A stretch of DNA of 64,000 nt from Escherichia coli (GCF_016026235.1 NZ_CP065613.1); one strand, 5' to 3'; shown: positions 15,560-17,062, counted from the first letter of the stretch. Numbers and translations are program-made. The notes: generated from the sequence alone by a model not told the origin.

Positions 15560-15597
15560 GTGATCGCCGGATGCTGATTGCCGGATGCGACGCTGAC
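15560..15597. repeat. Left half of a REP palindrome split by IS150
   Basis: GCCGGATGCGACGCTGAC immediately left of the IS; the matching half GCGTCTTATCCGGCCTACA lies at 17030-17062. Confidence 0.7.
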
Positions 15598-15629
15598 TGA
15601 ACTGAACCCCAAAACCTGGACAGTTTCAG

Positions 15630-16481
15630 TTAACCGGCTTTTTGATACTCAGTCCGGTATTCTACCGAGCTGAGTCCCCCAAGACTGAGTTTTATTCTTT
15701 TTTGATTCCAGTAAGTTATGTATTCGTTAACAGCATTTTCCAGCTCTTCTACACTTCTGTAGTCCCGGCGATAGTACATTTCTTCTTTCAGGTGACCAAA
15801 GAAATTCTCCATTACCGCATTATCAAGGCAGTTGCCCTTGCGCGACATGCTCTGCACTAACCCTTTGTCTGCCAGGGCAGACTGATAACTTTTTATCCGG
15901 TAATGCCACCCTTGATCACTGTGGAGCAGCGGTTTTTCTCCTTCTGCAAGGCTTTCCAGCCCCTTATTTAACATGCGCTTCACCAGCTCCTCTGTAGGCC
16001 TGCAGGCAGTTTCCCACGCCACGATTTCCCCGTTAAACAAATCAAGTATCGGGGACAGGTACAGTTTTTGTCCGCCAGCCCTGAATTCGGTGATATCTGT
16101 CACCCATTTCTCACAGGGAGCTTCCGCTTTGAACTGCCGCTGAAGGATATTTTCTGCAGCGAGTCCCATATTTCCCCGGTAAGACCGGTATTTCTTCAGG
16201 CGCACAGGAGACTTCAGGCCGAGCTGTTGCATCAGTTTTCGCACTGTTTTGCCACTGAACTTAAGACCTCTTTTCTGAAGCTCACAATGGATCCGCCGGT
16301 ACCCATAACATCCCCGGTGTTCATGGAAGATGGAGGCTATGAGCTGTTTCACATCAGCATACTTGTCCTTAGCCTTCTGCAGTGACAGCTGGTAGTACAG
16401 CGTGCTTCTGGCCAGCCCTGCAGCCTTTAACAGGTCAGACTGGCAGTGTCCGCACTTCAGGCTCTGGATGACTTTCGTTTT
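15630..16481 (-). CDS. insK: IS150 OrfB (InsK), DDE catalytic domain; probably expressed as an OrfAB fusion by -1 frameshifting. The 5' limit is approximate
   Basis: ORF track 15630..16352 (240 aa from an internal start); frame stays open upstream into the orfA overlap; -1 frame relative to orfA. Confidence 0.75.
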   Translation of the reverse strand, partial: KTKVIQSLKCGHCQSDLLKAAGLARSTLYYQLSLQKAKDKYADVKQLIASIFHEHRGCYGYRRIHCELQKRGLKFSGKTVRKLMQQLGLKSPVRLKKYRSYRGNMGLAAENILQRQFKAEAPCEKWVTDITEFRAGGQKLYLSPILDLFNGEIVAWETACRPTEELVKRMLNKGLESLAEGEKPLLHSDQGWHYRIKSYQSALADKGLVQSMSRKGNCLDNAVMENFFGHLKEEMYYRRDYRSVEELENAVNEYITYWNQKRIKLSLGGLSSVEYRTEYQKAG

Positions 16482-16978
16482 TTCTCCAGCTCCTGGCGCT
16501 TTTTTTCCAGGAGATGCTCCTGCATGGCTTTCAGATATGCATTTTCTGCGCGAAGATAACGCAGCTCATTCTTCATCTCTTCCGGCGTCATGTTTCCCTC
16601 GTTTTCATGGGTATCATTAGAACGGGTCATGCTTTTCTCCTTCCTGCGCCTGATAAAGGCCTCATTACCAGATTTGCGGTAGCCTTTTATCCAGTTTTTA
16701 ACCATGTTGTGGCTGGGAATGTTAAACCGGGCAGCTACCCGGGGTAGAGACTCAGAATGCCCGAGAGCATAAAGAACCACGCAAAGTTTATCTTCAGGAG
16801 AATAGCTACGCTTGTGTCTGCAATCCAGTGCCTGAGGACCGTGAAGAAGAAAAAGATTAATCCAGTGTGAGAGGCTGGTGTGAGAAAGTTGAAAGAGTTT
16901 TGCCGTAGAAATGATGCCTGCATGACCGGCCAGGTAATGATTTACAGCGGCAAGTTTTACTTCAAATGAATGTTTCAT
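16457..16978 (-). CDS. insJ: IS150 OrfA (InsJ), helix-turn-helix DNA-binding protein
   Basis: 173 aa starting MKHSFEVKLAAVNHYLAGHAG; leucine-zipper-like C-terminus. Confidence 0.88.
   Translation of the reverse strand: MKHSFEVKLAAVNHYLAGHAGIISTAKLFQLSHTSLSHWINLFLLHGPQALDCRHKRSYSPEDKLCVVLYALGHSESLPRVAARFNIPSHNMVKNWIKGYRKSGNEAFIRRRKEKSMTRSNDTHENEGNMTPEEMKNELRYLRAENAYLKAMQEHLLEKKRQELEKKRKSSRA
16499..16505 (-). other. Probable programmed -1 ribosomal frameshift heptamer A-AAA-AAG in the IS150 orfA/orfB overlap
   Basis: Reverse-strand CTG GAA AAA AAG CGC near the end of orfA, with orfB open in the -1 frame. Confidence 0.55.
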
Positions 16979-17029
16979 AAACTGCACCTTCAGATGTCAG
17001 ATTATGTCCAACATTTGGGGTGCAGTTCA

Positions 17030-17062
17030 TGACGCGTCTTATCCGGCCTACAGCGTCTTAAC
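17030..17062. repeat. Right half of the REP palindrome split by IS150
   Basis: TGACGCGTCTTATCCGGCCTACA directly right of the IS. Confidence 0.7.

What the first reader, a model, noticed from the sequence alone, without database searches (positions are those of the whole stretch)
15594..17033. IS150 copy inserted into the centre of a REP palindrome with TGAC on both flanks
An IS3-family element with InsJ/InsK-type ORFs and TGAACTG...CAGTTCA ends lies between tktB and ypfG. Removing it and one TGAC copy restores a canonical REP palindrome (GCCGGATGCGACGCTGACGCGTCTTATCCGGCC). REP hairpins as IS landing sites are known for other IS families, so this is a nice example of an IS3-type insertion into one. 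The element is about 1432 bp by my boundary call, and the duplication could equally be read as 3 bp (TGA).
Basis: partly seen in the sequence, partly recalled or inferred. Interest (0 to 1): 0.4.

Follow-up and report, generated by a model that had tools for sequence, protein, structure and literature searches.

The report
IS1397 inserted in a REP loop

Summary
A 1432-bp IS3-family element lies at 15598-17029, with its transposase on the minus strand. It is flanked by TGAC at 15594-15597 and 17030-17033. Removing the element and one TGAC gives GCCGGATGCGACGCTGACGCGTCTTATCCGGCC, which is the sequence at the empty tktB-ypfG site in K-12 and one other strain checked. TGAC is the 4-nt loop of that hairpin, and the duplication is 4 bp, not 3.

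The identification is wrong. The element is IS1397, 99.7-99.9% identical to copies that RefSeq annotates as 'IS3-like element IS1397 family transposase'. Against the K-12 IS150 reference there is no extended DNA match, and OrfA and OrfB are 28% and 50% identical. IS1397 belongs to the IS3 family, and published work shows it inserts specifically into REP/palindromic units.

Nine of 10 independent IS1397 loci I sampled sit in the centre of a REP, with 3-4 bp duplications. The copy looks functional. Only 2 of 5426 complete E. coli genomes carry it at this site, probably through independent insertions. This is ordinary and already known.

In passing: tktB itself is split by an ISSso6-like IS110-family element.

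The parts
15598..17029 (-). IS1397 (IS3 family), complete 1432-bp copy
   Evidence: Matches E. coli copies annotated 'IS3-like element IS1397 family transposase' at 99.7-99.9% over the full length. It differs by 1 nt from the two copies examined in FDAARGOS_943 and by 4 nt from the common variant.
17005..17029 (-). Left terminal inverted repeat (IRL, transposase-proximal end), TGAACTGCACCCCAAATGTTGGACA
   Evidence: 21/25 match to the other end; terminus is TG...; unique in the window.
15598..15622 (+). Right terminal inverted repeat (IRR), TGAACTGAACCCCAAAACCTGGACA read inward
16457..16978 (-). orfA (173 aa, helix-turn-helix DNA-binding protein)
   Evidence: Pfam HTH_28 at 4.7e-17. The ATG at 16978 matches the RefSeq CDS start in L007.
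16499..16505 (-). A AAA AAG slippery heptamer in the orfA frame, the predicted -1 programmed frameshift site
   Evidence: Read from the sequence. A -1 shift here gives a 449-aa OrfAB, the length of the RefSeq 'programmed frameshift' CDS (1349 nt).
15630..16505 (-). orfB frame (DDE/rve catalytic domain), expressed as the OrfAB fusion
   Evidence: NCBIfam transpos_IS3 at 325 bits against a cutoff of 160. Pfam rve, rve_2 and HTH_21. Motifs WVTD(295), HSD(355) and DNAVME(391) give D-60-D-36-E spacing.
15594..15597 (.). Target-site duplication copy 1 (TGAC)
17030..17033 (.). Target-site duplication copy 2 (TGAC)
15580..15597 (+). Left (5') arm of the split REP/palindromic unit, GCCGGATGCGACGC plus the loop TGAC
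   Evidence: The empty-site alleles are contiguous here. The reconstructed hairpin folds at dG -12.8 kcal/mol, z = -4.6, with a loop that is exactly TGAC.
17030..17051 (+). Right (3') arm of the split REP, (TGAC)GCGTCTTATCCGGCCTAC
15566..15579 (+). Extra partial left half-REP (GCCGGATGCTGATT) upstream of the target REP
   Evidence: Read from the sequence. Also present in the K-12 empty allele.
17053..17070 (+). Extra partial right half-REP (GCGTCTTAACCGGTCTAC) downstream of the target REP
   Evidence: Read from the sequence. K-12 has GCGTCTTATCCGGCCTAC here.
14650..15557 (+). 3' fragment of tktB (left neighbour, converging on the IS)
   Evidence: Annotated tkt in the homologous loci. In the window it is truncated at 14650 by an ISSso6-like element.
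17089..18132 (-). ypfG (DUF1176), right neighbour, whose 3' end faces the IS

Best explanation
This is an intact, probably transposition-competent copy of IS1397, an IS3-family DDE insertion sequence in the IS150-like part of the family. It integrated into the 4-nt loop (TGAC) of a REP/palindromic unit in the convergent tktB-ypfG spacer. Shown here: the identity of the element, its exact boundaries, the 4-bp duplication that equals the hairpin loop, the pre-insertion sequence, and the same centre-of-REP position for IS1397 copies at other loci. Inferred from established IS3-family biology (IS911, IS2, IS3, IS150): OrfA and an OrfAB fusion are made by -1 frameshifting at A AAA AAG. OrfAB excises a circular copy by copy-out/paste-in and integrates it with cuts staggered by 3-4 bp. 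Published work on IS1397 and ISKpn1 attributes the choice of REP target to the transposase itself. In my sample the loop and duplicated sequence varies between sites (TGAC, TTA, GTG, TGG, TGGC, TAC, TTGC, GTTT), the stems are conserved, and both orientations occur. So recognition is most likely of the REP stems or hairpin geometry, not of the loop sequence. The insertion lies between two convergent genes and splits a REP, so it is probably close to neutral for the host. Any loss of REP-mediated 3'-end stabilisation or termination for tktB/ypfG is untested.
For: Identity: 99.9% over 1432/1432 bp to copies in FDAARGOS_943, and 99.7% to many copies annotated 'IS3-like element IS1397 family transposase'. 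The fused 449-aa OrfAB differs from the widespread WP_100245061.1-type protein at 3 residues, D121N, A128G and P438S, none in a catalytic motif. Family: NCBIfam transpos_IS3 at 325 bits, Pfam rve/HTH_21/HTH_28. Not IS150. Target: the empty alleles in K-12 and strain 504838 read GCCGGATGCGACGCTGACGCGTCTTATCCGGCC, and 5420 of 5426 genomes match the empty-site reconstruction. Hairpin loop = TGAC = duplication. Specificity: of 10 independent IS1397 loci chosen without any flank in the query, 9 are in the centre of a REP with 3-4 bp duplications (8 of those 9; one has none), in both orientations. Other copies also match 22-33 bp of this site's REP flanks. By my regex, intact REPs number only 5 in this 64-kb window, about 0.25% of bases. 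Literature: IS1397 inserts specifically into REP/PUs and the transposase determines specificity (PMC1525189 and PMC3184786, citing Clement 1999, Wilde 2001 and 2003). The CFT073 copy lies at GCCGGATGCGGCGTG|AACGCC (supplement 13). Recent activity in this lineage: the tilS-rof and tktB-ypfG copies of the near-identical strain FDAARGOS_943 are identical to each other and share three lineage-specific variants.
Against: I could not obtain the ISfinder/EMBL type sequence of IS1397 or the primary papers. The name therefore rests on RefSeq/PGAP annotation of near-identical copies and on matching behaviour. PGAP labels the FDAARGOS_943 protein only 'IS3 family transposase'. Frameshifting, transposase activity and any effect on neighbouring genes were not tested. 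One sampled copy (LH50-c) is not in a REP, and one (fbaB-gatY) has REP arms but no duplication, so specificity is strong but not absolute. The window copy carries a private D121N change in OrfA of unknown effect.
Confidence: 0.95

Rival explanations
1. The element is a copy of IS150 (insJ/insK), and happened to land in a REP.
For: It has the same family and a similar architecture: two ORFs, an A AAA AAG slippery site, and similar end motifs (TGAACTGCACCC against TGTACTGCACCC). OrfB is 50% identical to InsK. Tobes & Pareja list one of two IS150 copies in CFT073 as REP-associated.
Against: Length is 1432 bp against 1443 bp. The best DNA HSP against K-12 IS150 is 70 bp at 77%, and OrfA/InsJ identity is 28%. 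The match to IS1397-annotated copies is 99.7-99.9%.
Confidence: 0.01
2. The IS at tktB-ypfG in the window/FDAARGOS_943 lineage and in GPEC1446 is one ancient insertion inherited by descent or moved by homologous recombination, not two independent hits on a hot-spot REP.
For: Both have the identical nucleotide position, orientation and TGAC duplication. Homologous recombination of a several-kb segment between E. coli lineages is common (general knowledge).
Against: Only 2 of 5426 genomes are occupied. The flanks differ by about 1.2% (34 of about 2750 bp). Each copy carries the IS sequence variant typical of its own genome: the window type is shared with the tilS-rof copy of FDAARGOS_943, and the GPEC1446 copy has the same four differences from the window as the AR_0085 copy. 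The element's known site specificity predicts recurrent identical insertions. From memory, Wilde 2001 described homologous PU-containing intergenic regions as hot spots; I could not check this.
Confidence: 0.25
3. The copy is a dead relic, fixed at this site and no longer mobile.
For: It carries a private OrfA substitution, D121N, absent from the other copies examined.
Against: Both ORFs are open, the slippery site is intact, the DDE residues are present, both inverted repeats are complete and the duplication is perfect. It differs by a single nucleotide from sister copies at two loci, which implies very recent transposition in the lineage.
Confidence: 0.1

Closest known systems
IS1397 (IS3 family; Bachellier 1997, Clement 1999, Wilde 2001/2003)
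   Same: Near-identical sequence to annotated IS1397 copies and a length of 1432 bp. It is inserted in the centre or loop of an E. coli REP/palindromic unit with a 3-4 bp duplication, and it has the two-ORF frameshift architecture.
   Different: Nothing of substance. It has 1-4 nucleotide differences from other copies, including a private D121N in OrfA. The tktB-ypfG site is occupied in only 2 of 5426 complete E. coli genomes.
IS150 (E. coli K-12 insJ/insK)
   Same: IS3 family, and a similar size (1443 against 1432 bp). It has similar terminal motifs, an A AAA AAG frameshift site, a DDE OrfB (50% aa identity) and 3-4 bp duplications.
   Different: There is no extended DNA similarity, and OrfA is only 28% identical. 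The ends differ (TGTACTG against TGAACTG). I know of no reported REP specificity for IS150.
ISKpn1 (Klebsiella pneumoniae, IS3 family)
   Same: By literature, a relative of IS1397 that also inserts into the loop of palindromic units, with specificity determined by the transposase.
   Different: It targets the K. pneumoniae type of PU. It was not compared by sequence here.
IS621 / ISPpu9 / ISPa11 (IS110 family REP-targeting elements)
   Same: They also use REP sequences as insertion targets.
   Different: They have an unrelated DEDD-type recombinase. IS621 inserts at the 3' side of the REP, outside its inverted repeat, not in the loop (PMC3184786).

Membership tests
IS150 (specific element) | Near-identity of DNA to the IS150 reference. 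The ISfinder isoform rule of roughly >=95% nt is quoted from memory. | tested here: not met
   Against NC_000913.3 IS150 the best HSP is 70 bp at 77%, and a forced global alignment gives 63%.
IS150 (specific element) | Length 1443 bp with TGTACTG...CAGTACA termini | tested here: not met
   The element is 1432 bp with TGAACTG...CAGTTCA termini.
IS150 (specific element) | Encodes InsJ and InsK | tested here: not met
   OrfA/InsJ 28% identity and OrfB/InsK 50% identity.
IS1397 | Near-identity to elements curated or annotated as IS1397 | tested here: met
   99.7% over 1432/1432 bp to loci whose CDS is named 'IS3-like element IS1397 family transposase' (WP_100245061.1), with 3 aa differences in the 449-aa OrfAB.
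IS1397 | Direct alignment to the ISfinder/EMBL type sequence | not testable with these tools
IS1397 | Insertion into the central part or loop of REP/palindromic units | tested here: met
   The window copy splits the hairpin at its TGAC loop. 9 of 10 independent loci are likewise in the centre of a REP, as is the CFT073 copy. Literature.
IS1397 | 3-4 bp target duplication | tested here: met
   4 bp here. 3 or 4 bp at 9 of the 10 other independent loci.
IS3 family | DDE (rve) transposase matching the family model above the curated cutoff | tested here: met
   NF033516 transpos_IS3 at 325.3 bits against a cutoff of 160; Pfam rve at 1.3e-21; D295, D355 and E391.
IS3 family | Two overlapping ORFs joined by -1 programmed frameshift at a slippery heptamer | tested here: inconclusive
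   A AAA AAG lies in the orfA frame at 16499-16505, orfB is in the -1 frame, and the fusion length equals the RefSeq frameshift CDS. The downstream RNA folds only modestly better than shuffles, z = -2.7. Frameshifting itself was not assayed.
IS3 family | Imperfect terminal inverted repeats ending 5'-TG...CA-3' | tested here: met
   TGAACTG...CAGTTCA, 21/25 inverted-repeat match.
REP / palindromic unit (BIME) | Extragenic imperfect palindrome of the GCCGGATG...ATCCGGCCTAC type able to form a stable hairpin | tested here: met
   The reconstructed site has dG -12.8 kcal/mol, z = -4.6. It lies between convergent genes. Similar units occur elsewhere in the window.

The most novel reading that the evidence does not exclude
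The tktB-ypfG REP may be a true nucleotide-level hot spot, hit independently by IS1397 at the same base and in the same orientation in two diverged E. coli lineages. IS1397 would then be currently active in the window's IS-rich lineage. That would make this locus a convenient natural reporter for how an IS3-family transposase reads a REP hairpin.
Probability: 0.6. Interest if true: 0.2.

Novelty: already known. Interest (0 to 1): 0.1.

Why it matters
It matters little beyond correct annotation. IS1397's preference for the centre of REP/palindromic units has been documented experimentally since the late 1990s, and this copy behaves as expected. The useful outcomes are three. The name is corrected from IS150 to IS1397. 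The 4-bp duplication is shown to be exactly the hairpin loop. And the site is rarely occupied (2 of 5426 genomes), probably through recurrent independent insertion, which illustrates how precise the targeting is. The surrounding region carries other IS insertions and, in the near-identical strain FDAARGOS_943, several frameshifted genes. That fits an IS-expanded, Shigella/EIEC-like E. coli background.

Tried and rejected
1. IS150 identity was rejected by direct DNA and protein alignment with the K-12 reference.
2. The 3-bp (TGA) reading of the duplication was rejected. The element ends are fixed at TGAACTG...CAGTTCA (1432 bp) in all 12 other copies, while the adjacent flank bases vary.
3. I tried to read the primary IS1397 papers (PMC94167, PMC95333, PMC169884). 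They are not held, so I used secondary citations and one supplement.
4. I looked for further IS1397 ends in the window and found none.
5. I folded the RNA downstream of the slippery site to look for a frameshift stimulator. The signal is modest (z = -2.7, mononucleotide shuffles) and I draw no conclusion from it.
6. I considered that the IS-free allele might be a secondary excision. I rejected this because 5420 of 5426 genomes match the empty-site reconstruction, and the two alleles read base by base show an intact palindrome with a single TGAC.

Full report
OBSERVATION. The sequence at the reported coordinates reads ...GCCGGATGCGACGC-TGAC|TGAACTGAACCCC...GGGGTGCAGTTCA|TGAC-GCGTCTTATCCGGCC.... 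TGAC lies at 15594-15597 and 17030-17033, and the element between them is 15598-17029, exactly 1432 bp. Its ends form an imperfect inverted repeat of about 25 bp (21/25) with TG...CA termini. Each end occurs once in the 64-kb window, with none expected by chance. The minus strand carries a 173-aa OrfA (16978-16457) and, in the -1 frame, an open OrfB frame running to 15630.

WHAT THE ELEMENT IS. A megablast of the 1432 bp against 5426 complete E. coli genomes found full-length copies in 1707 genomes. The best is 99.9% identical and many are 99.7% identical, and their CDS is annotated 'IS3-like element IS1397 family transposase, programmed frameshift'. I then fetched the reference IS150 of K-12 MG1655 (NC_000913.3 3720633-3722075, 1443 bp, insJ/insK) and aligned it. 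The best DNA HSP is 70 bp at 77%. OrfA is 28% identical to InsJ and OrfB 50% identical to InsK. The termini differ, TGTACTG against TGAACTG. The element is therefore IS1397, not IS150.

Family features are all present. OrfB scores 325 bits against NCBIfam transpos_IS3 (cutoff 160) and carries Pfam rve, rve_2 and HTH_21. OrfA carries HTH_28. An A AAA AAG heptamer sits in the orfA frame at 16499-16505. A -1 shift there gives a 449-aa OrfAB, the same length as the RefSeq frameshift CDS. The catalytic motifs are WVTD295, HSD355 and DNAVME391. The fusion differs from the common WP_100245061.1-type protein at three non-catalytic residues: D121N, A128G and P438S.

THE TARGET. I joined the flanks with one TGAC and searched the same genome set. 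5420 of 5426 genomes match the reconstruction across the junction. In K-12 MG1655 and strain 504838 the natural sequence is GCCGGATGCGACGCTGACGCGTCTTATCCGGCC with a single TGAC. This reconstructed REP folds as single-stranded DNA into a hairpin (dG -12.8 kcal/mol, z = -4.6) whose 4-nt loop is TGAC. The target-site duplication is thus exactly the loop.

The alternative 3-bp reading is excluded. In 12 other full copies the element is always 1432 bp with the same first and last bases, while the neighbouring bases vary. The site lies between convergent genes: tktB ends at 15557 on the plus strand and ypfG ends at 17089 on the minus strand. It is flanked by extra partial half-REPs that are also present in K-12.

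IS THE REP LOCATION MORE THAN CHANCE? I took IS1397 copies ranked only by identity of the IS itself, with no flank in the query, and fetched the surrounding DNA. Of 10 independent loci, 9 sit in the centre of a REP/palindromic unit: tilS-rof, yjjW-yjjV, gltP-yjcO, loiP-speB, fbaB-gatY, aldB, yjdM-yjdN, cysM-yfeS and tktB-ypfG. Both orientations relative to the asymmetric REP occur. The duplications are 3-4 bp and vary in sequence (TTA, GTG, TGG, TGGC, TAC, TTGC, GTTT, TGAC).

There are two exceptions. A copy in LH50-c lies next to IS66 in a non-REP context. The fbaB-gatY copy has REP arms but no duplication. In one search, copies at other loci also matched 22-33 bp of this site's flanks, that is, the REP arms. 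Intact REPs found by a simple regex number only 5 in this 64-kb window, about 0.25% of bases, so chance cannot explain the pattern.

This agrees with the literature. IS1397 'inserts specifically within REP sequences of E. coli', and experiments suggest that the transposases are responsible for target specificity (PMC1525189, citing Clement 1999, Wilde 2001 and 2003). [quoted passage not shown] The CFT073 copy is shown at TGCCGGATGCGGCGTG|AACGCCTTATCCGGCCTAC (supplement 13 of PMC1525189). I could not open the primary papers.

MECHANISM. Shown: the identity, the boundaries, the duplication equal to the loop, the pre-insertion allele, and the recurrent centre-of-REP position. Inferred from established IS3-family biology: OrfA and the frameshift product OrfAB are made, and OrfAB drives copy-out/paste-in through a circular intermediate and integrates with 3-4 bp staggered cuts. 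Inferred from my flank sample: the loop sequence varies, the stems are conserved and both orientations occur. The transposase therefore most likely reads the REP stems or hairpin geometry and not the loop bases. The effect on the host is probably small, since this is a convergent intergenic site. Loss of any REP-dependent 3'-end function is untested.

POPULATION CONTEXT. Only 2 of 5426 genomes carry the IS at tktB-ypfG: FDAARGOS_943 and GPEC1446. The window is colinear with FDAARGOS_943 and 99.95-99.97% identical to it over its whole length. Its IS differs from that strain's tktB-ypfG and tilS-rof copies by one base, 16618 T against C. GPEC1446 has the IS at the identical base, in the same orientation and with the same TGAC. 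Its flanks differ by about 1.2%, and its IS shows the same four differences from the window copy as the AR_0085 copy. Two independent hits on the same REP loop is the more parsimonious reading. A shared or recombined origin is not excluded.

COMPARISON AND NOVELTY. The element is a member of IS1397 and of the IS3 family. It fails every test for being IS150. REP targeting by this IS has been known since the late 1990s, so nothing here is new in kind.

NOTICED IN PASSING.
- tktB itself is split in the window by a 1.5-kb ISSso6-like IS110-family element at about 13132-14649. This insertion is absent at that site from all 5426 genomes.
- The window has a 100-bp tandem duplication containing a REP at 589-721, relative to FDAARGOS_943.
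- K-12 and roughly 1800 other genomes keep only a short terminal remnant of IS1397 (65 bp in those listed). In K-12 it abuts a half-REP downstream of yhhJ and ends just before ISEc1/yhhI.
- Several genes in the homologous FDAARGOS_943 region (hyfB, hyfD, hyfR, narQ) are annotated as frameshifted. That fits an IS-rich, decaying genome.

Noticed in passing
window 13132-14649 (tktB 12034-13131 and 14650-15557): tktB is interrupted by a ~1518-bp ISSso6-like IS110-family element. Its 391-aa transposase is on the minus strand at 13397-14572, and there is a 2-bp CT ambiguity at the junctions. No complete E. coli genome in the collection (0 of 5426) has this insertion. The near-identical strain FDAARGOS_943 has an intact tktB but 14 ISSso6 places elsewhere.
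   Followed up: partly
window 589-721: There are two identical REPs (GCCGGATGCGACGCTTGCCGCGTCTTATCCGGC, minus strand) 100 bp apart. Alignment to FDAARGOS_943 shows a ~100-bp tandem duplication in the window, in the eutG-eutH spacer.
   Followed up: partly
L019 1501-1565 (E. coli K-12 MG1655, downstream of yhhJ); matches window 15598-15662: K-12 and roughly 1800 other E. coli genomes keep only a short terminal remnant of IS1397, 65 bp and 63/65 identical in K-12. In K-12 it directly abuts a half-REP (TAGGCCGGATAAGGCGTTTA) and ends about 10 bp before the ISEc1 transposase gene yhhI. It looks like an old REP-targeted insertion that was later truncated.
   Followed up: partly
L006 1801-3232 (E. 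coli GPEC1446 tktB-ypfG): A second genome has IS1397 at the identical nucleotide, in the same orientation and with the same TGAC duplication. Its flanks are about 1.2% diverged, and its IS shows the same four differences from the window copy as the AR_0085 copy. This is probably an independent insertion into the same REP loop.
   Followed up: partly
L010 1201-2632 (LH50-c) and L012 1201-2632 (ECNB21-M121 fbaB-gatY): Two IS1397 copies are atypical. One is outside any REP, beside a truncated ESPR-domain gene and an IS66 element, with a 3-bp CAA duplication. The other lies between REP arms but has no target duplication, which could reflect inter-copy recombination or mutation.
   Followed up: no
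window ~20000-50000 (homologous to FDAARGOS_943 5095000-5126000, L017): In the near-identical FDAARGOS_943 annotation, hyfB, hyfD, hyfR and narQ are marked frameshifted. An IS1 interrupts pdeF just beyond the window end. This suggests an IS-rich, gene-decaying, Shigella/EIEC-like background. I did not check whether the same frameshifts are in the window.
   Followed up: no
window 16618: There is a private T (C in the other IS1397 copies compared). It gives OrfA D121N in the linker region between the HTH domains and the leucine-rich C-terminal part. Its effect is unknown.
   Followed up: no
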